Shown: positions 2,417-8,272 of the stretch, piece by piece
How the letters are laid out: each line of letters opens with the position of its first letter
Numbering within the stretch: the stretch's first letter is position 1
From: a virus
Lineage: Duplodnaviria; Heunggongvirae; Uroviricota; Caudoviricetes
Strand: one strand, 5' to 3'
IMG/VR virus record: IMGVR_UViG_2648501150_000043
Coordinates: 1-20,165 of that record
Length of the DNA: 20,165 bases
The notes under the pieces: model-generated
Seen by the model: only the letters and a program-made list of their open reading frames with translations
Database searches by the model: none
What the model was told of the DNA's origin: nothing
Program-made: the position numbers and the translations under genes

Positions 2417-2712
2417 TTGTCTTTCTCCTGAGACTCAGCGGCCATTTTCAGATACTGTTCAGGACAGTGCGCCATGACGCGCTGAAACAATGCCAGTGCC
2501 AGGTTGCGCTGCCCTTCGTTGAATGCAGTTAAGTGCGAATCACCAGCGAAGCATGGTGAGAACACCTTTCCCCTCTCCAGCATCGACCAGATAACGCGGC
2601 GGCCTTGCTCGCTACCCATAACGAACTTGATGTCGTCGATATCACGCTGAGCCAGAAGTTGCTGTTTGGCGTCAAGCTCTGCTTTGCGTCCTTCGTCGTC
2701 GATATCCATCAT
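2413..2712 (-). CDS. Hypothetical small acidic head-module protein (99 aa)
   Basis: ORF whose ATG overlaps the portal stop codon (ATGA coupling at 2709-2712); no recognisable family. Confidence 0.55.
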   Translation of the reverse strand: MMDIDDEGRKAELDAKQQLLAQRDIDDIKFVMGSEQGRRVIWSMLERGKVFSPCFAGDSHLTAFNEGQRNLALALFQRVMAHCPEQYLKMAAESQEKDK

Positions 2713-4379
2713 TGCTGCGGTGCTCCTGCTGCATTAGCGATAGCAGTTAATGCGCTCGGGTCGCTGGTCTGCGTTTCGCTGAGAGTCTTGGCCCCCTGCG
2801 CTGCCGCCTGACCCATAGCCATTGCCTGTGCCGCCTGAGCCTGTTTAGCTCGCTCTTCACGAATACCCTGTACCTGCTCCTGCGGAACGATGACGGTTGG
2901 CGATACGCCTGACATTTCAGAGAACGCGTCGATAGCCTGATCCACATCAAGCTTGTCGAGCGCTTCAGGTTTGAACTGCGCCAGTTGCCCGATAAATCCA
3001 ACTGTCTGCGACAGGCTGGTGAGGCCGATAGATTTCTGAGCCTGAGCCATCACAGAGATGTACTCGATACGCAGCGGCATACCCTGAAGAACGTCAGGAG
3101 GTTCTGGCAACATGTTCTTGCGGGCCATGATTGAGAACACGCGATCGATAAGCGGGTTAAGCGCTTCGTCATTCAGGCGCTCAAGCACCGGGCCAAGCAT
3201 CAGCAGTTTCTCTTCCTTCATCTCGATCACCGCTTCCACCGGCATAGATCGGGTGTTGATGTTTTGCAGCATCATGAAGAGGTCAACGAAGTAGGCGCTG
3301 TTGATGGTCTGCCTAGTGTCCTGAATGTCAGCCAGCAGGTCGGCGGTATTCGGGTTTACCAGGTATGCAGGTTTGAAACCATCCTGACCGGTCAACACGT
3401 CGAGGTACGTCACATCGCCAGGCAACAGGGAAACCCGCTGATTCTTGAGCGATGTCGGGGCAACCATCGGCGGGTTAGTGGCTTTATCGATCAACTGAGC
3501 TTTGCGCTTCTGCTCAACCTGAAGGGCTTTAACCTGACCGAGTGCCAGCATTCCAGGACAGGATGAGGCGTAAACGTCTTCGCCATTCACTTCCCAGCGC
3601 GGCGCCAGAATAGGGAATTCATCAAATCCGGATTCACGCAGCAGCTTGTCAGCGTCACCGCCAGTTTCGAAATAGACAGAGCGGTAAGGCTTGTTCTTGC
3701 TGTCCATCTTACCGCTGTCGCGGTTGACGTTAGGCGTGATGCAGTGGTTAACCTCCACCCACGTTTCATACGTGCCATTTTCCCACATGCCTTTTACGGA
3801 TGTACTGACGTTATCCAGACCGAATTCCTGCACCATCTGGCGCACGGTCATGGAGAACTGGCGAATGCAGGTGTCTACGCTACCGCGCGGACTGTTAGCC
3901 AGGTAGTAACTGCCAATAGGGAAAGGCATTGTGCGGATCACGTCCTGGTCATCTTCCAGAACAGCCATAGCGCCGGTGCCGAAAGTACCCAGACTTGCGT
4001 ACATAACAGGCAGTGACTGATACAAATTCGATTTGTTGAACACTTCGTTCATGCGGCGCTGCACGACTTCCAGCCAGATTTTCACCGGGCCATAGTCCAT
4101 CATGTCAGGGTCAGGCGTTGCCAGTTTGAACCACGGTCGTGCCGGACTGGTGATGCCTGACATCATGCCGCTGGACAGAATGCGCTGAGCCATTGAGCCA
4201 GTGGGATCAACAATCTTGGTGTTACGGCGATCATCACGGTTTACATCAGATGTCAGAAAGCGGGAGCCACGCGGATTGATGAAGTCACTCAGATCACGCC
4301 AGTGCGATTCGAACGATGTGCGCTCATTCTTCAGCTGCGCAAGTTGCTTCAGCAGGCGCTCTTTTTCGGTTTCCGCCAT
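2709..4379 (-). CDS. Portal (head-to-tail connector) protein, 556 aa
   Basis: Long ORF of typical portal size downstream of the large terminase, upstream of scaffold and capsid; GGAG-type RBS; sequence recalls podovirus-type connector proteins (recall only). Confidence 0.85.
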   Translation of the reverse strand: MAETEKERLLKQLAQLKNERTSFESHWRDLSDFINPRGSRFLTSDVNRDDRRNTKIVDPTGSMAQRILSSGMMSGITSPARPWFKLATPDPDMMDYGPVKIWLEVVQRRMNEVFNKSNLYQSLPVMYASLGTFGTGAMAVLEDDQDVIRTMPFPIGSYYLANSPRGSVDTCIRQFSMTVRQMVQEFGLDNVSTSVKGMWENGTYETWVEVNHCITPNVNRDSGKMDSKNKPYRSVYFETGGDADKLLRESGFDEFPILAPRWEVNGEDVYASSCPGMLALGQVKALQVEQKRKAQLIDKATNPPMVAPTSLKNQRVSLLPGDVTYLDVLTGQDGFKPAYLVNPNTADLLADIQDTRQTINSAYFVDLFMMLQNINTRSMPVEAVIEMKEEKLLMLGPVLERLNDEALNPLIDRVFSIMARKNMLPEPPDVLQGMPLRIEYISVMAQAQKSIGLTSLSQTVGFIGQLAQFKPEALDKLDVDQAIDAFSEMSGVSPTVIVPQEQVQGIREERAKQAQAAQAMAMGQAAAQGAKTLSETQTSDPSALTAIANAAGAPQQ

Positions 4380-4393
4380 CTCTGCCTACTCCG

Positions 4394-4600
4394 TTACTGA
4401 CCAAGCAGCGTTTTACCGCTGGTGTTTGCGGTTGAGGTGTCACCCTGAGCACCAGTCAGCAGAGTGGAACTGCGTCCTGCTGCTGCACGGCGGCGGCGTT
4501 CTTCGTCGTCACGAGAACTGACAACTGCTGCATCCTGCTCCTGTGGCGCAGCCTGTACTTCTGGCGCTGCTGGCACTGATGGCTTGCTGCCGATACACAT
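4394..4600 (-). CDS. Hypothetical small protein (68 aa), Ala/Pro/Arg-rich low complexity
   Basis: ORF ending 14 nt before portal start; GGAG 10 nt upstream of ATG; low-complexity composition makes coding status uncertain. Confidence 0.35.
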   Translation of the reverse strand: MCIGSKPSVPAAPEVQAAPQEQDAAVVSSRDDEERRRRAAAGRSSTLLTGAQGDTSTANTSGKTLLGQ

Positions 4601-4689
4601 AGCAATAGCTCCGTACGCAATTAAATTATTACCAATTTAACCACATATGATTTATTTAGCGTAGGCTATTGACACTTATAACATCAGAT

Positions 4690-4706
4690 ATTACCTTTTA
4701 GGTAAT
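4690..4706. promoter_or_regulatory. Perfect 17-bp palindrome ATTACC-TTTTA-GGTAAT (operator-like site, isolated copy upstream of portal operon)
   Basis: Exact inverted repeat read in sequence; same motif family as the sites flanking the repressor gene; TTGACA at 4670-4675 lies just upstream. Confidence 0.5.
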
Positions 4707-5308
4707 TGATGTTGATGTAACGCAGTTGATGTACGGCATATGGCACATGTGCCGCAGCGGTCCGGATGGGTTCCATTGATGCTACTTCCCCAGCCGGGTA
4801 GCCGGAATGTGCAAGCCAGTGTCAGGTAAGCACGGACAGACGATTCACCATCGTGGCGATACGGTGTGACACCTCGGAAGAGACGAGGATGCAACGATGA
4901 GAGCATTGGGGTGACCGGTTAATCCCATGACGCTAACCGATACAGGCGCAGTGCTCTCAATGTTGTGGTTAATGGCGGGGCTGACCGTCAAACGGTTGAG
5001 AAAAGATAAGCAGGCGAAACGTTCTAAGCGAGCATACGGACTGATCGAACGCGGATGGAACGGGCGGTTACGATATTGAAACACCGCGCCACTGAGCTGG
5101 AGTTCAGCACCAGCCACCACAAACGAATCACGTTAGGACCGTGGTAAACCGTAGTGCCAATGTAATTGCTGTGTGACTTTGTCGGTGCCAGATTCATCCC
5201 GAGTTGCCCCTCGCTGGTACCGACACTTTTTTTACAGCAGAACGCCATTGCGATGACGTTGCGCTGTAAACCCGTAACTGCCATGGAAGGCACCCTTACT
5301 TCCAGTTC
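4707..5308 (+). other. About 600-bp region without ORFs of 60 aa or more on the plus strand, rich in local inverted repeats; candidate long structured leader or ncRNA, ending in intrinsic terminator
   Basis: Six-frame track shows no plus-strand ORF here; the three minus-strand ORFs are in three different frames with implausible composition; region bounded by promoter-like TTGACA (4670) and a strong terminator (5309-5332). Confidence 0.25.
4927..5079 (+). CDS. Possible 50-aa small protein MTLTDTGAVLSMLWLMAGLTVKRLRKDKQAKRSKRAYGLIERGWNGRLRY (hydrophobic N-terminus, strongly basic C-terminus)
   Basis: Found by manual translation (below ORF-track size cut-off); weak RBS (GGGGTG about 13 nt upstream); speculative. 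Confidence 0.2.
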   Translation: MTLTDTGAVLSMLWLMAGLTVKRLRKDKQAKRSKRAYGLIERGWNGRLRY

Positions 5309-5332
5309 GCCCACTTCGGTGGGCATTTTTTT
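5309..5332 (+). terminator. Rho-independent terminator: GCCCAC-TTCG-GTGGGC hairpin followed by ATTTTTTT
   Basis: Perfect 6-bp GC-rich stem with 4-nt loop and 7-T run on plus strand; the reverse strand lacks a T-run, so it is unidirectional. Confidence 0.65.
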
Positions 5333-5343
5333 AAGGTGAGATT

Positions 5344-5775
5344 ATGAGCAAAGACCTGTTTGACATGAAGCGCCTTCCGGTTGACCGGGTTGCTGCGAGA
5401 GTTGTTGGTAAGGGCGTGGATTGGACACCAAACAAAGTTATCCAGACAGGAGACAGCGATCTGCCGTTGCCAGTGTTTTCTGTGTATAACATTAAAAACC
5501 CGCAACAACGGCGAGAAGTGAAAGCAATGATCGGAAGAAAGCGCGGGAGATTGACAATAATTGGCCTTGCTGTCACGCAAGGAGCAAAAAATAAAGGTGC
5601 TCGCTATGTTGCTCGTTGTGTTTGCGGGATTTATACGTATCGCCGAGCAAAAAATTTCAAGAATAATTCCGATGAGTTTGATGGCTGCGAACGATGCAGG
5701 GAGTTGCTGTTTTTGAAACGAGATGAGGTCCATCGCAGAACTGGAAAATGGGTAGAATGGAAAGATTTGATATAA
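5344..5775 (+). CDS. Hypothetical basic protein with C-terminal Cys4 zinc-ribbon (C-x-C ... C-x2-C), 143 aa
   Basis: AAGGTGAG RBS 4 nt before ATG, immediately after a terminator; own terminator downstream; opposite strand to the surrounding late operon; Cys pairs CVCG and CERC about 21 residues apart. Confidence 0.65.
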   Translation: MSKDLFDMKRLPVDRVAARVVGKGVDWTPNKVIQTGDSDLPLPVFSVYNIKNPQQRREVKAMIGRKRGRLTIIGLAVTQGAKNKGARYVARCVCGIYTYRRAKNFKNNSDEFDGCERCRELLFLKRDEVHRRTGKWVEWKDLI

Positions 5776-5795: not shown

Positions 5796-5821
5796 AGCCC
5801 GCCGATGCGCGGGCTTTTTTG
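5796..5821 (+). terminator. Rho-independent terminator: AGCCCGC-CGATGC-GCGGGCT hairpin followed by TTTTTT
   Basis: 7-bp GC stem plus 6-T run on plus strand only. Confidence 0.65.
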
Positions 5822-5862
5822 TATGGCATAATCACTCATTCGATTATCACAGCGAGTGGACC

Positions 5863-6144
5863 ATGAAAATTAAACAAAAAATTGTTAATACCTTTGTGAA
5901 CTCAACCCATGAGTGGAACATGGCCATGCACAATGCCATTGAAAGAAAGGTATTTGAAGGATTTGAAAGCACATTCCCTAATGGATTAAAAGACCCTGCT
6001 GAGACCGGTGAAAGAATAGAGTCAATGCGTGCATTCTATTATCAGCGCATGATGAATACCGCATCACTTTTGCTAACTGGTGCGTCACTAATCATTGCAT
6101 TAGTTGCCTTGGTTGTAGCTCTGATATCAATTCACTATGCATAG
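5863..6144 (+). CDS. Hypothetical small membrane-anchored protein (93 aa) with C-terminal transmembrane helix; the track ORF starts earlier at 5785
   Basis: Hydrophobic stretch SLLLTGASLIIALVALVVALISI at C-terminus; visibly AT-rich codon usage compared with neighbours; 3' end overlaps terL 3' end convergently by 10 bp. Confidence 0.5.
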   Translation: MKIKQKIVNTFVNSTHEWNMAMHNAIERKVFEGFESTFPNGLKDPAETGERIESMRAFYYQRMMNTASLLLTGASLIIALVALVVALISIHYA

Positions 6145-7610
6145 GGGTCGTATTCTGTCAACGCCTTGCCCTGCTGGCTTTGCTGTCCTGGTATATTCAT
6201 ACGTTTCGACACCGGGAAAGCAAACGTCAGCAGCAGCGCATCACCCTTGCCAGGAGAACGGCCTAACCGCTCTTTGATATCTTCCTTCGGCTCAATAACT
6301 ATCTTGCCGTCCACCCTGACTTTGTACTCAGCCGCCGACAGGTCGTCAGCCGTTTCCTGGTCATCCAGTGCGCCACCAATTTTCAGCCACGTTTTGCAGC
6401 TGTTGAACATCTCGCCGCGCTTGTTGAGCATCTGCGGATCGGTAGAGCCGCCGCCGAAAGGTATCAGTTGCCAGGAACGGCCCCAGCCATCACCGATTGA
6501 CTTCAGCCCGGTACCATACCCGAAGTCGATGAATACAGCGTCAGCCTGGTACTGGTCTTCAAAATCAGCGATACGCTTTGCCATAATCAGATCATCGGTT
6601 GTCTTATTGCCGGTCCATAGCACTTTGCTGTGAAGCCCCTGGCGCAGGTATATCACCGCGTCATCCACACCGGAATACGCCGGGTCAACACCGATAATCA
6701 CCGGAGCGTGCGCCACCTGCCCGGCTGTCACCACGCGCTTCATTGCGGAATCAGTCAGGCCTGTCGGGATAAACTGGAGTTCAGACGCATCAGGGAAGAT
6801 CCCGCGTACACGAACTTTCACGAAGTCGCTATCCTCGCCGTAGTCATCAACCCACTTCTGCAACTGCTGCTTGTTGGTGCCTTCCACGGTGCGGCTGTCT
6901 ATCTGCGCGCACTTCCAGCGGTGTTTGTATTTGCGGAAGCATTCACGGAAACGCCCGGTGTTACGCGTAGGGTTCCCGAACGCCACCCAGATGATTTCGG
7001 TGTCTTCGTCCGTCAGCGCACCCTCGGCAACTTCCCACACCAGATCGGCAATGTTGGACGCTTCATCGAATACAACGATGATGCGCTTGCGTTCGTTGTG
7101 CAGACCGGCGAACGCCTCGGTGTTGTGTTCAGACCATGGAATAGCATCAGCGCGCCAGCGTTTGTCGTGACCGGGATCGTTGCTGTACATCGCGGTGGCG
7201 GTGCAGGTGAACCACTCTTTCGTGATAGCCAGGTTCGACCATTTGATGATTTCAGGCCATGTTTTGGTGCGCAGCTGGTTGTCGGTGTTGGCGGTCACCA
7301 CCACCTTGCAGTCTTCACAGGTAGACATGCCCCAGTTGATGAGCATCGAGATGAACGCAGATTTACCGATACCGTGGCCGGATGCGCGGGCCAACATCAG
7401 CGGCTGGTGACGCGTTGCTGGATTCTGCAGGTGATCGCGTATCTCGCGGAATGCGTCTGCCTGCCATTTTCGCGGGCCGGTGGCATGCGCCAGTTCTGTC
7501 CCCTCTTCGCCCCACGGAAACGCATACAGCGAATAGCCCAGCGGGTCATATGTGAACGATGCAATATCCTCGACAAGCTGCTCTTCCGGCGACATGGCTG
7601 CGGCTGTCAT
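6135..7610 (-). CDS. terL: Terminase large subunit (491 aa)
   Basis: Walker-A-like GHGIGKS near N-terminus, nuclease-like acidic C-terminal half, size, ATGA overlap with upstream small terminase gene. Confidence 0.9.
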   Translation of the reverse strand: MTAAAMSPEEQLVEDIASFTYDPLGYSLYAFPWGEEGTELAHATGPRKWQADAFREIRDHLQNPATRHQPLMLARASGHGIGKSAFISMLINWGMSTCEDCKVVVTANTDNQLRTKTWPEIIKWSNLAITKEWFTCTATAMYSNDPGHDKRWRADAIPWSEHNTEAFAGLHNERKRIIVVFDEASNIADLVWEVAEGALTDEDTEIIWVAFGNPTRNTGRFRECFRKYKHRWKCAQIDSRTVEGTNKQQLQKWVDDYGEDSDFVKVRVRGIFPDASELQFIPTGLTDSAMKRVVTAGQVAHAPVIIGVDPAYSGVDDAVIYLRQGLHSKVLWTGNKTTDDLIMAKRIADFEDQYQADAVFIDFGYGTGLKSIGDGWGRSWQLIPFGGGSTDPQMLNKRGEMFNSCKTWLKIGGALDDQETADDLSAAEYKVRVDGKIVIEPKEDIKERLGRSPGKGDALLLTFAFPVSKRMNIPGQQSQQGKALTEYDPYA

Positions 7611-8200
7611 TCTTCACCACCATCCAGCTCTTTCACGCGACGGCGGGCCTTCGCCATGCGGTCGGCAATCGTTACTGTGCCGGAAACCTCCATGCGCTCT
7701 TTGAACGCATTGACGTCGACGTGCTTACCGATAAGCTCGAGGTTCTTCACCTTGTCAGGCCATTTGATTTTTTTGAGGATTGTTTCTATCGAATCCTCGT
7801 TCATATTCATGATGGTCGATGACAAATCGAAACCGCTCAGTGTAGTACGCCATATCTTTGGCCACTCGCGGATAGGCTTCAGTGTGCCGTCATCGTTCAG
7901 GATATCGATCACGTCCATCTGGTCAATTTCCACCAGGCGGAGCAGTACGTAGTCCGCACTGACGCGCAAACGCTTGTTACGCTCTTCCATCAGTTCGGCG
8001 ATCCGTTTCTGGATACGCTCATCACGCATCATGACACTGGCCTTGACTGCCGCCGTATTTGGCGAAAATCCTGCGTTAATCGCTGCCTGAGTCTGATTCT
8101 CAGGGCATTTGGTATATTCCTGCGCGTAAGCCTCCTGCATCGCTGTAATTGGCTTATACTGCGTTGATTTGCGTTTTGGTGCTTTTGGTTCTGCGGGCAT
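7607..8200 (-). CDS. terS: Terminase small subunit, P27/Terminase_2-like (about 197 aa from ATG 8200; the track ORF extends to 8248)
   Basis: Motif QEAYAQEY...TQAAINAGFSPNTAAVKAS typical of small terminase DNA-binding domain; GGTGG RBS 5 nt upstream of ATG at 8200; the longer 8248 start would add a hydrophobic junk peptide and cover the operator. Confidence 0.85.
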   Translation of the reverse strand: MPAEPKAPKRKSTQYKPITAMQEAYAQEYTKCPENQTQAAINAGFSPNTAAVKASVMMRDERIQKRIAELMEERNKRLRVSADYVLLRLVEIDQMDVIDILNDDGTLKPIREWPKIWRTTLSGFDLSSTIMNMNEDSIETILKKIKWPDKVKNLELIGKHVDVNAFKERMEVSGTVTIADRMAKARRRVKELDGGEE

Positions 8201-8219
8201 TGTTACCACCGAAGTAATA

Positions 8220-8236
8220 ATTACCGTTTTGGTAAT
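8220..8236. promoter_or_regulatory. Perfect 17-bp palindrome ATTACC-GTTTT-GGTAAT about 20 bp upstream of the terS start codon, flanked by further TTACC/GTAAT half-sites (8203-8243)
   Basis: Exact inverted repeat; sits between a minus-strand terminator and terS RBS. Confidence 0.5.
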
Positions 8237-8240
8237 AGTA

Positions 8241-8272
8241 ACACGCAAAACAAAGCCGCCATAGTCGGCGGC
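8241..8272 (-). terminator. Hairpin GCCGCC-ATAGTC-GGCGGC with T-rich tract (TTTGTTTTG) on the minus strand; intrinsic terminator or possibly part of a packaging (cos-like) site
   Basis: 6-bp GC stem and T-run read on minus strand; location between upstream early genes and terS. Confidence 0.4.

What the first reader, a model, noticed from the sequence alone, without database searches (positions are those of the whole stretch)
4707..5332. About 600 bp without a long ORF, ending in a terminator directly upstream of a gene RBS: candidate large structured RNA or regulatory leader
No plus-strand ORF of 60 aa or more exists here, and the three minus-strand ORFs are in different frames with implausible composition. 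The stretch is dense in local inverted repeats (for example GGCACATGTGCC at 4742-4753 and CCGGG-TAG-CCGG near 4790). It ends with a textbook intrinsic terminator (GCCCAC-TTCG-GTGGGC plus T7) placed only about 10 nt before the Shine-Dalgarno sequence of the 143-aa gene. A terminator immediately before an RBS is the architecture of riboswitch or attenuator leaders and of type III toxin-antitoxin loci. Alternatively the region is an independent non-coding RNA or a decayed gene. I found no tandem direct repeats of the ToxI type.
Basis: partly seen in the sequence, partly recalled or inferred. Interest (0 to 1): 0.55.

Follow-up and report, generated by a model that had tools for sequence, protein, structure and literature searches.

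The report
Non-coding early RNA operon of phage
The 600-base "gap" is the untranslated front of an early transcript of an epsilon15-like temperate phage. The two terminators must be read through to express the gene behind them.

Summary
Window 4707-5332 has no conserved ORF and ends in an intrinsic terminator (5309-5332) that abuts the RBS of a 143-aa gene.

The window is a Uetakevirus (epsilon15/SPN1S-like) phage. The interval lies between gp3/portal and TerL, on the opposite strand.

It is neither a pseudogene nor a type III toxin-antitoxin locus. It is the leader of a transcript from a promoter whose -10 overlaps the operator annotated in epsilon15. In order it holds:
1. A 170-nt RNA (4733-4890) with covarying hairpins and an H-type pseudoknot. 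It has no Rfam family.
2. A "CAAC" hairpin, of the family that also precedes dicF in E. coli K-12 Qin.
3. A 160-nt tRNA-derived element, in the slot where relatives carry tRNA-Arg(UCU).
4. A DicF-like unit ending in terminator T1.
5. A second sRNA-like unit ending in terminator T2.

The 170-nt RNA recurs in at least 120 viral contigs. It sits at the 5' end of PL-type operons right after the cI gene of lambdoid phages (no N gene seen there), in phage P1 just upstream of ban, and in epsilon15-like phages.

Best guess (about 0.35-0.4): it acts in cis like HK022 put RNA, letting polymerase pass T1 and T2. It is not a detectable put homologue.

The parts
4669..4706 (+). Inferred early promoter: -35 TTGACA (4669-4674), 17-nt spacer, -10 TACCTT (4692-4697). 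The -10 overlaps the inverted repeat ATTACCTTTTAGGTAAT (4690-4706). The inferred transcript start is near 4704.
   Evidence: The TTGACA-N17-TACCYT layout is kept in diverged Uetakevirus relatives. The inverted repeat equals the feature annotated 'repressor, lysogeny' in epsilon15 (L001:3091-3107 maps to window 4690-4706). The consensus scan did not call this promoter, so it is inferred, not shown.
4733..4890 (+). 5' module, a ~170-nt pseudoknotted RNA (new family, model R1). Helices:
- H1: 4734-4740/4748-4754, loop UGGCACA.
- H2: 4761-4764/4795-4798, closing the variable hairpin V1.
- Helix 4815-4817/4855-4857, closing V2 and H3.
- H3: 4840-4844/4850-4854.
- Pseudoknot: H3 loop 4846-4849 with 4863-4866.
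- H4: 4872-4876/4884-4888, loop GAAGAGA.
- Invariant strand CGGGUAGCCGGAAUGUGCAAG: 4795-4815.
   Evidence: The 5' conservation boundary is sharp, at about 4732. Covariation: 97% of cells paired, 18 pairs changed on both sides, 0/500 shuffles. The pseudoknot was not in the model, yet it is 98.9% paired, with switches from CACC/GGUG to AACC/GGUU and GGUC/GACC. The covariance model scores the window at 172.5 bits. No Rfam match even at E<=10.
4892..4965 (+). 'CAAC' hairpin: CAAC (4892-4895) and GAGAGCA (4899-4905) pair with UGCUCUC (4952-4958) and GUUG (4962-4965). It is a likely processing hairpin.
   Evidence: It belongs to a family of ~78-nt hairpins found before or after the 5' module in at least 63 of 129 loci. 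The family covaries, for example A-U in 34 copies against C-G in 32. The same hairpin lies upstream of dicF in K-12 Qin. In epsilon15 it is annotated as an RNase III site. In phiV10 its 3' strand abuts the 5' end of tRNA-Arg.
4963..5122 (+). tRNA-derived element of ~160 nt. An acceptor-like helix (4963-4969/5116-5122) encloses several hairpins and a T-arm-like hairpin (5096-5100/5110-5114, loop AGUUCAGCA).
   Evidence: It is not called as a tRNA. Relatives carry in the same slot tRNA-Arg(UCU) or a 113-nt 'pseudogenic tRNA-Gly'. A near-identical element occurs in 32 viral contigs. An 82.6% identical copy in phage 15G has compensatory changes. The 50-aa ORF inside it (4927-5079) is interrupted in most copies.
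5129..5143 (+). Small conserved hairpin CACG/CGUG with loop UUAGGAC, in the 3' trailer position of the tRNA slot.
   Evidence: It is conserved directly after the tRNA or tRNA-like element in all aligned relatives.
5169..5233 (+). DicF-like unit with terminator T1. The 5' arm is GCUGUGUGACUUUG. An 11-bp stem (5181-5191/5214-5224) is followed by T7 (5227-5233).
   Evidence: The stem changes on both sides between relatives: GGCGGUGGCAG/CUGACCACCGCC, GUCGGUGCCAG/CUGGUACCGAC, GGCGGUACCAG/CUGGUACCGCC. It aligns with K-12 dicF in position and in the 5' arm (about 14 of 18 by my count). The homologue in E. coli EC2 hits Rfam DicF at 23 bits, E 0.65, which is below the 48-bit threshold. The window copy gives no DicF hit.
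5234..5332 (+). Second sRNA-like unit:
- Domain D2: 5234-5238/5263-5267 and 5241-5244/5257-5260, with the invariant loop GCCAUUGCGAUGAC.
- Hairpin: 5285-5289/5299-5303.
- Terminator T2: 5309-5314/5319-5324, then T7 at 5326-5332.
   Evidence: The block is 93-97% identical in all Uetakevirus relatives, including epsilon15. T2 has two pairs that change on both sides in 8 of 27 sequences. The terminator scan finds it.
5333..5775 (+). RBS AAGGTGA (5333-5339) and a 143-aa cargo gene (5344-5775) of unknown function. The operon-end terminator T3 follows at 5796-5822.
   Evidence: ORF list. The protein matches phrog_18493 (unknown function) and weakly an HNH-endonuclease PHROG (E 9e-6). It has no Pfam or NCBIfam hit. 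No sigma-70-like promoter was found between T1 and the ATG (plus inspection).

Best explanation
The interval is the untranslated first ~640 nt of an early transcription unit of an epsilon15-like temperate phage.

**Shown**
- It is non-coding.
- It is a chain of separable, structurally conserved RNA modules: the 5' pseudoknotted RNA, the CAAC hairpin, the tRNA-derived element, the DicF-like unit with terminator T1, and the sRNA-like unit with terminator T2.
- A protein gene follows whose RBS touches T2. I found no promoter of its own for it.

**Inferred**
- Transcription starts near 4704, from a promoter whose -10 overlaps the operator annotated in epsilon15. It therefore fires only on infection or induction.
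- Polymerases that stop at T1 or T2 release small RNAs, as happens for DicF in the dicBF operon.
- The CAAC hairpin and the tRNA-like element are cut by host RNases (RNase III, P and E).
- Only polymerases that pass both terminators express the 143-aa gene.

**Proposed mechanism (probability about 0.35-0.4)**
The 170-nt 5' RNA folds on the nascent transcript and acts in cis on the elongating RNA polymerase. It would be a functional analogue of HK022/HK639 put RNA. Polymerase could then complete a long untranslated, Rho-exposed transcript and read through T1 and T2.
For: **Placement**
- In every context the module sits at, or within about 55 nt of, the start of a repressor-controlled early transcript. 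In lambdoid loci clear sigma-70 promoters with operators lie just after the terminator of a cI-type gene (HTH_3 plus Peptidase_S24). In the window the -10 overlaps the epsilon15 'repressor' operator.
- This is where HK022 and HK639 place putL.

**Terminators downstream**
- 70 of 87 distinct loci have at least one intrinsic terminator between the module and the first ORF of 80 aa or more.
- In Uetakeviruses T2 is fused to the RBS of whatever cargo gene follows. Gene expression there therefore needs read-through.

**No N protein seen**
- The lambdoid hosts of the module have yfdQ/ParB-type early-left operons, and no N-like gene lies between PL and those genes.
- A 2025 paper notes that lambdoid phage LLS, with an early-left operon of this type, lacks an N homologue, and guesses at a put-like RNA (PMC12315714).

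**Works without a shared phage protein**
- The same RNA is kept in three unrelated phage types: lambdoid, P1-like and Uetakevirus. No phage protein shared by all three was seen, although this was not searched for systematically. This suggests it works with host machinery only.

**Structure**
- Structure is strongly selected, including a pseudoknot, and a 21-nt strand is invariant across the sequences examined. That search used an exact match to this 21-mer, but P1, cdtI and the species genomes were found without it.

**One copy**
- There is one copy per phage, on the PL side. In the HK639 record only a single, left-operon put-like RNA is annotated.
Against: - There is no detectable homology to put. 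The model gives no hit in HK022 or HK639 with filters off. Local alignments reach z of 2.4 at most.
- In P1 the module lies about 2.4 kb downstream of Pban, after a dicF-like region and three tRNAs. It is only about 60-90 nt before ban, and I saw no terminator in between.
- Epsilon15 has lost most of the module but keeps T2 and the gene.
- K-12 Qin reads from dicF into dicB without the module. Leaky termination alone could therefore suffice.
- CAAC hairpins flank the module on either side in many loci. That fits excision of a discrete, stable RNA that acts in trans.
- If polymerase became terminator-resistant, it would also ignore T3 (5796-5822) and run antisense into TerL.
- No transcript data were available.
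Confidence: 0.4

Rival explanations
1. The 5' module is one more cargo RNA of a non-coding early operon. It would be cut out of the precursor at the flanking hairpins and tRNA ends as a stable ~170-nt RNA, and act in trans, for example by binding or titrating a host protein or RNA. Read-through of T1 and T2 would simply be leaky, as at dicF.
For: - The other units of the operon are trans-acting RNA types: tRNA-Arg in relatives, and a DicF-like sRNA.
- CAAC hairpins, annotated as RNase III sites in epsilon15, lie before or after the module in at least 63 of 129 loci.
- In P1 the module starts about 6 nt after the 3' end of tRNA-Ile. tRNA processing there would create its 5' end.
- DicF is known to arise by early termination plus RNase E and RNase III processing, while the operon continues to dicB (PMC9438474).
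- Epsilon15 keeps T2 and its gene without the module.
Against: - Apart from P1, the module was the promoter-proximal unit of the array in the loci examined. A free-standing cargo RNA need not be.
- There is no terminator or poly-U at its 3' end.
- No target or partner can be named.
- No complementarity search gave a lead.
Confidence: 0.3
2. The 5' module is a ligand-sensing RNA (riboswitch) or a self-cleaving ribozyme. It would control or process the early transcript.
For: The design is typical of aptamers and ribozymes: invariant junction strands, a pseudoknot, and peripheral hairpins (V1, V2) that vary in sequence and length.
Against: - No adjacent expression platform exists. What follows the module differs between contexts: a CAAC hairpin, other hairpins, or the ban RBS region in P1.
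- The terminators lie 290-420 nt away.
- No Rfam riboswitch or ribozyme family matches.
- The downstream genes are unrelated to each other, so they suggest no common ligand.
Confidence: 0.1
3. The interval would be a classical attenuator or riboswitch leader of the 143-aa gene, with terminator 5309-5332 as its expression platform.
For: The terminator abuts the RBS, and the stem covaries. No promoter lies between T1 and the gene.
Against: - The D2-T2-RBS block is shared, nearly unchanged, in front of unrelated genes of 88 to 201 aa.
- I found no alternative antiterminator pairing with either arm of T2 (inspection of 5234-5308).
- No leader peptide is present.
- No Rfam cis-regulatory family matches above noise.
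Confidence: 0.07
4. The interval is a decayed protein gene (pseudogene), or a type III toxin-antitoxin locus.
For: The interval is long with no ORF. A terminator before a gene is also the layout of ToxIN loci.
Against: - Compensatory base changes occur throughout.
- Conservation alternates between invariant strands and variable hairpins with indels that are not multiples of three.
- The only sizeable + strand ORF is broken in relatives.
- There are no tandem repeats.
- The downstream protein has no ToxN/AbiQ-like hit.
Confidence: 0.02

Closest known systems
put RNAs of phages HK022 (putL, putR) and HK639 (putL-like): cis-acting RNAs that make RNA polymerase resistant to terminators
   Same: - Placement is the same: just downstream of the repressor-controlled early-left promoter, right after the cI gene, in lambdoid phages where no N gene was seen, and ahead of intrinsic terminators.
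- There is a single copy on the left side, as annotated for HK639.
- No shared phage protein partner is evident.
   Different: - It is about 170 nt with five helices and an H-type pseudoknot. put is about 70 nt (126 nt annotated in HK639) with two stems.
- No significant sequence or model similarity was found.
- It also occurs outside lambdoid phages, in the P1 ban operon and in Uetakeviruses.
- Its activity is untested.
dicBF operon of the E. coli K-12 Qin prophage (ydfABC-dicF-dicB), where an sRNA is made by early termination and RNase E/III processing inside an early-left operon
   Same: - The order is the same: CAAC hairpin, then a GUUGUGG-initiated domain, then an sRNA whose hairpin is a Rho-independent terminator, then a downstream gene.
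- The 5' arm of T1 resembles that of DicF.
- Production of an sRNA alongside read-through mRNA is documented for DicF (PMC9438474).
   Different: - The window's T1 unit does not reach the Rfam DicF threshold. There is no hit in the window and 23 bits against 48 in a relative.
- Its stem is longer and its loop is different.
- Qin has protein genes (ydfABC) upstream of the hairpin, where this phage has the 170-nt RNA. Qin has no copy of that RNA.
tRNA gene cassettes in early or late leaders of temperate phages (tRNA-Arg(UCU) of SPN9TCW and phiV10; tRNA-Asn, -Thr and -Ile of the P1 ban operon)
   Same: The 4963-5122 element occupies exactly the slot of tRNA-Arg(UCU) in relatives. It keeps an acceptor-like helix and a T-arm-like hairpin, and it has the same flanking hairpins.
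   Different: It is not recognised as a tRNA by ARAGORN or Rfam. The D and anticodon arms are replaced by about 100 nt of other hairpins. It is nonetheless conserved nearly unchanged in 32 viral contigs, so it is not simply a decaying pseudogene.
Lambda nutL and the N-leader region (boxA/boxB and an RNase III hairpin downstream of PL)
   Same: The position is the same, at the start of the PL transcript. A short hairpin carries a purine-rich loop (H4, loop GAAGAGA) and large hairpins follow it.
   Different: No N-like protein is encoded nearby. H4 is replaced in a subset of family members. The resemblance of H4 to boxB is from memory and was not tested.

Membership tests
put antiterminator RNA (HK022/HK639) | Located just downstream of the early promoter, before terminators, in a lambdoid phage that lacks N | tested here: met
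   Promoter and operator lie directly upstream, and the cI-type gene before that. Terminators lie downstream in 70 of 87 loci. No N-like ORF was seen.
put antiterminator RNA (HK022/HK639) | Sequence and structure homology to putL/putR (two-stem RNA of ~70 nt) | tested here: not met
   Model R1 gives no hit in HK022 or HK639 with filters off (best 5.8 bits). Local alignments against shuffles give z of 2.4 at most. The architecture differs: five helices and a pseudoknot.
put antiterminator RNA (HK022/HK639) | Promotes terminator read-through in cis without protein factors, and is blocked by mutations in the RNA polymerase beta-prime zinc-binding domain | not testable with these tools
   This needs reporter assays and in-vitro transcription.
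DicF sRNA (Rfam RF00039) | Reaches the Rfam gathering score (48 bits) | tested here: not met
   The window gives no DicF match even at E<=10. The homologous unit in E. coli EC2 scores 23 bits, E 0.65.
DicF sRNA (Rfam RF00039) | Synteny: inside an early-left operon, after the CAAC hairpin, with a 3' hairpin that is a Rho-independent terminator followed by further genes | tested here: met
   Alignment with K-12 ydfC-dicF-dicB. T1 has an 11-bp stem and T7.
DicF sRNA (Rfam RF00039) | Represses ftsZ and other targets by base pairing, dependent on Hfq | not testable with these tools
Target prediction was not attempted.
tRNA | Cloverleaf recognised by ARAGORN or the Rfam tRNA model | tested here: not met
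   No tRNA is called in the window. Relatives have tRNA-Arg(UCU) in the same slot.
Type III toxin-antitoxin (ToxIN-like) | Tandem direct repeats of the antitoxin RNA upstream of a terminator and a ToxN/AbiQ-type toxin gene | tested here: not met
   No tandem repeats in 4600-5343. The 143-aa protein has no such family hit.
Known riboswitch, leader or ribozyme families (Rfam 15) | Match to a curated covariance model | tested here: not met
   No hit at gathering thresholds over the whole window. Only chance-level hits to the terminator hairpins at E<=10.
Large prophage ncRNAs that sit next to tRNAs (GOLLD, ROOL) | Match to the Rfam models | tested here: not met
   No match. The resemblance is only that a tRNA lies inside a long phage ncRNA locus, and that link is from memory.

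The most novel reading that the evidence does not exclude
The 170-nt pseudoknotted RNA would be a new class of host-polymerase-directed, protein-independent processive antiterminator (or anti-Rho element). It would stand in for N in a large group of lambdoid phages, including cdtI, mEp390, mEp460, Ayreon, 2H10 and Stx2a/Stx2c/Stx2k-converting phages. It would also have been recruited by the P1 ban operon and by epsilon15-like phages.
Probability: 0.33. Interest if true: 0.85.

Novelty: new variant of a known kind. Interest (0 to 1): 0.66.

Why it matters
**An open question it could settle.** How lambdoid phages without an N protein get through their early terminators is open outside HK022 and HK639. 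A 2025 survey could only guess at a put-like RNA for one such phage, LLS (PMC12315714). This window points to a concrete candidate that can be modelled.

**What the candidate is.**
- A conserved 170-nt pseudoknotted RNA sitting exactly where putL or nutL would be.
- DNA from the interval matches about 10% of complete E. coli genomes (527 of 5426 match some part of window 4600-5350).
- It is also present in Shiga-toxin-converting phages, in P1, and in epsilon15-like phages of Salmonella and E. coli O157.
- It is absent from Rfam, and unannotated or called 'hypothetical protein' in the phage records examined.

**Annotation.** The locus also shows that 'empty' gaps next to terminase genes in these phages are early RNA operons holding tRNA-like, DicF-like and other sRNAs. 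This corrects several database annotations, including opposite-strand 'hypothetical proteins' and a 'pseudogenic tRNA'.

Tried and rejected
- **Rfam.** Searches at gathering and at permissive thresholds gave nothing for the 5' module, and only chance-level hits on the terminator hairpins.
- **tRNA/tmRNA search of the window.** None found.
- **Homology to put.** The covariance model built here does not find HK022 putL/putR or the HK639 put-like RNA. An eye-catching shared string (ACGGCG..CAUGCGUCG..AGCG) is not significant against shuffles. I therefore dropped the claim of homology.
- **A second, putR-like copy on the PR side.** None lies within the flanks held.
- **Coding hypotheses.**
  - The 29-aa frame that starts in H1 has no SD, and the element shows an RNA-type conservation pattern.
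  - The 50-aa ORF at 4927-5079 is broken by TGA in most copies and has no family hit.
- **Whole-leader fold energy.** Not exceptional (z = -1.4), so single-sequence folding is no argument either way.
- **RNAalifold's long-range pairing** of the H1 loop with 4809-4812. It involves invariant bases only, so it is neither supported nor refuted.
- **Resemblances I recalled** to RNase P RNA, SRP RNA, CsrA sites and boxA/boxB. None is backed by a model hit or by conservation.
- **Literature.** Full-text searches for the element's sequence strings gave nothing. Searches on put, P1 ban and dicF context turned up no description of the element. The P1 genome paper was not available.
- **Counts on the 3' part.** My first count mis-registered the inner D2 helix by one base, and MAFFT shifted T1 between length variants. 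Only the T2 result from that call is used. T1 covariation is read directly from the aligned sequences.
Full report
**1. Where the window comes from**

The window is a Uetakevirus (epsilon15/SPN1S-like) temperate phage or prophage.
- The minus strand carries TerS (7607-8248), TerL (6135-7610), gp3 (4394-4600) and the portal gene (2709-4379).
- The finding lies in the gap between TerL and gp3, on the opposite strand. A + strand 143-aa gene follows at 5344-5775, with its own terminator at 5796-5822.

**2. The observation**

There is no + strand ORF of 60 aa or more. The named palindromes and the terminator-T7-SD-ATG arrangement are at the stated coordinates. There are no tandem repeats.

Folding energy of the whole stretch is unremarkable (z = -1.4). 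The case for function rests on comparison with relatives.

**3. The region is a mosaic of modules**

Relatives align in blocks:
- 4600-4710 is conserved.
- 4731-4907 is very strongly conserved.
- 4908-5115 is variable.
- 5115-5230 is moderately conserved.
- 5230-5349 is 93-97% identical.

The variable slot holds different things in different relatives:
- a genuine tRNA-Arg(UCU) in SPN9TCW, the H10407-type prophage and phiV10;
- a 113-nt 'pseudogenic tRNA-Gly' in E2348/69;
- in the window, a 160-nt tRNA-derived element.

**4. The 5' module (4733-4890)**

*Distribution.* A 21-mer from it (4795-4815) hits at least 120 IMG/VR contigs, and that scan stopped at its limit. A 19-mer hits 24 species-representative genomes. 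All are Enterobacterales except two probably contaminated MAGs.

*Boundary.* Conservation starts sharply near 4732.

*Structure.* On 53 sequences below 90% identity, the helices I derived are 95.8% paired, with 13 pairs changed on both sides. No shuffle of 500 reaches this, and slid controls collapse to 24-40% paired.

On a second set aligned to covariance model R1, the figures are 97% paired and 18 such pairs. That set includes two helices that were not part of the model:
- the 4815-4817/4855-4857 closing helix;
- an H-type pseudoknot between the H3 loop (4846-4849) and 4863-4866.

The pseudoknot switches from CACC/GGUG to AACC/GGUU in several sequences and to GGUC/GACC in one.

*Databases.* Rfam 15 has no match even at E<=10. 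In the phage records examined the element is unannotated or lies under 'hypothetical protein' calls. Full-text searches for its sequence strings found nothing.

**5. Genomic contexts of the module**

*Uetakevirus.* About half of the loci have the window's context.

*Lambdoid.* The other half are lambdoid. The module lies directly downstream of, and in the same orientation as, a cI-type repressor gene (HTH_3 plus Peptidase_S24). Genes of a yfdQ(DUF2303)/ParB-type early-left operon follow it. No N-like gene is present.

The upstream sequences show textbook promoters with operators just after the cI terminator. One example is TTGCGT-N17-TATCTT, with the start about 5 nt before H1. Another is TTGACC-N17-GATACT, with a 45-nt leader.

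*P1-like.* In P1, P7 and D6 the module lies between tRNA-Ile and ban, inside the C1-controlled ban operon. That operon also holds a 'dicF-like region' and two more tRNAs.

*The window's own promoter.* A perfect -35 (TTGACA, 4669-4674) is followed after 17 nt by TACCTT (4692-4697). This layout is kept in diverged Uetakeviruses. It overlaps the inverted repeat ATTACCTTTTAGGTAAT (4690-4706), which the epsilon15 record annotates as the lysogeny repressor's operator. The promoter is inferred; the consensus scan did not call it.

*Conclusion.* The module belongs to the start of repressor-controlled early transcripts.

*Copy number.* There is one copy per phage. One locus has two in tandem. HK022, HK639 and K-12 Qin have none.

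**6. The rest of the leader**

*CAAC hairpin (4892-4965).*
- It is one of a family of ~78-nt hairpins with a covarying stem.
- Copies lie before or after the module in at least 63 of 129 loci.
- The insertion that epsilon15's authors annotated as an RNase III site is such a hairpin.
- The same hairpin precedes dicF in K-12 Qin.
- In phiV10 its 3' strand overlaps the first bases of tRNA-Arg.

*tRNA-derived element (4963-5122).*
- It occurs almost unchanged in 32 viral contigs.
- Phage 15G carries an 82.6% identical copy in its late region, without the 5' module.
- The 50-aa ORF inside it is interrupted in most copies. A 35-aa basic frame remains, and I could not settle whether it is read (see items noticed in passing).

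*T1 unit (5169-5233).* It aligns with dicF in position and in its 5' arm. A relative reaches only 23 bits on the Rfam DicF model, and the window gives no hit. I therefore call it DicF-like, not a DicF member.

*Second unit (5234-5332).* It has the build of an Hfq-type sRNA: a stem-loop with an invariant loop, a second hairpin, and a terminator with poly-U. Its terminator covaries.

*Promoter for the gene.* No promoter is visible between T1 and the ATG.

**7. How it most likely works**

*Shown.* The stretch is non-coding and modular, its structure is under selection, and a terminator abuts the RBS.

*Inferred from the DicF precedent* (early termination plus RNase E/III processing, while the operon continues; PMC9438474). 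Polymerases that stop at T1 or T2 release small RNAs. Those that continue express the cargo gene.

*The cargo genes.* They differ between relatives (88 to 201 aa) and none has a known function. All are fused to the same D2-T2-RBS block.

*The open step* is the role of the 170-nt RNA. I favour a cis action on the transcribing polymerase, like put, at about 0.35-0.4. Four points support this:
- It sits where putL sits.
- Terminators lie between it and the genes in 70 of 87 loci.
- Its lambdoid hosts show no N gene. A published survey could only guess at a put-like RNA for one phage of this type, LLS (PMC12315714).
- It is kept in three unrelated phage lineages.

The long untranslated leader would also need protection from Rho, although it is G-rich rather than C-rich.

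*Against.* The points are listed under the best explanation: no homology to put, the P1 placement, the epsilon15 deletion, Qin read-through without the module, the flanking hairpins, and the T3 problem.

*Main rival (0.3).* The module is a further trans-acting cargo RNA released by processing.

*Other rivals.* A riboswitch or ribozyme (0.1), a classical attenuator of the 143-aa gene (0.07), and a pseudogene or type III toxin-antitoxin locus (0.02) are less likely, for the reasons listed with each.

**8. Comparison with known systems and novelty**

- *Works like:* put (placement and proposed role), and the dicBF operon (sRNA made by early termination inside an early operon).
- *Membership:* it is not a put family member, since homology was tested and not met. 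T1 is not a DicF member by the Rfam criterion. The tRNA-like element is not a tRNA.
- *What is ordinary:* the tRNA slot, the DicF-like unit and the hairpins are known kinds of things.
- *What is new:* the 170-nt RNA appears to be an undescribed family.
- *Rating:* I rate the whole as a new variant of a known kind (an early-leader RNA system of temperate phages), with interest 0.66. The antiterminator reading has probability about 0.33 and would merit about 0.85 if true.

Noticed in passing
window 4927-5079 (internal ATG at 4972); L136:3011-3181: A very basic small ORF lies inside the tRNA-like element (35-aa core MAGLTVKRLRKDKQAKRSKRAYGLIERGWNGRLRY). In most copies a TGA just upstream removes the first 15 codons. 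Phage 15G keeps a similar C-terminal peptide after two compensating indels. There is no SD. Coding is unlikely but not excluded.
   Followed up: partly
L016:3990-4162 and 4797-4967 (minus strand): One lambdoid contig carries two tandem copies of the 5' module about 800 nt apart. A cassette of opposite-strand genes separates them.
   Followed up: no
L001 (epsilon15) 3307-3390: The type phage epsilon15 has lost most of the 5' module (41 bits, 84 nt). It keeps the D2-T2-RBS block and its gene. This is a natural deletion that could be compared with phiV10 or SPN1S.
   Followed up: partly
L161 (phiV10) 1626-1877: The annotated CDS PhiV10p04 (minus strand) lies over a tRNA-Arg(UCU) gene and the DicF-like terminator on the other strand. 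It is probably a mis-annotation. mEp390 and Tyrion likewise have 'hypothetical protein' calls over the RNA modules.
   Followed up: partly
L004 (E. coli E2348/69) 2054-2166: A 113-nt 'pseudogenic tRNA-Gly' sits in the same slot. It has intact acceptor, D and T arms, but a long insertion where the anticodon arm should be. It is another tRNA-derived variant.
   Followed up: no
L131:200-388 and L134:631-819 (minus strand): Phage cdtI and an Stx2a phage carry Rfam C4 antisense RNA and IsrK on the PR side of the immunity region, opposite the module-bearing PL side.
   Followed up: no
L145, L157: Two metagenome-assembled genomes labelled Oscillospiraceae and Bacillota contain the element. L157 scores 186 bits on the model. 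This is most likely enterobacterial contamination or mis-binning.
   Followed up: no
window 5823-6161: About 310 nt between the operon-end terminator (5796-5822) and the TerL stop codon have no convincing ORF. A promoter-like site (TTGACA-16-CATAGT) lies on the minus strand at 6161-6134, inside the end of TerL.
   Followed up: no
L009 (Enterobacter phage Tyrion) 3897-3961: An Rfam int-alpA RNA match (44 bits, above threshold) lies in the same TerL-portal gap, downstream of the module.
   Followed up: no
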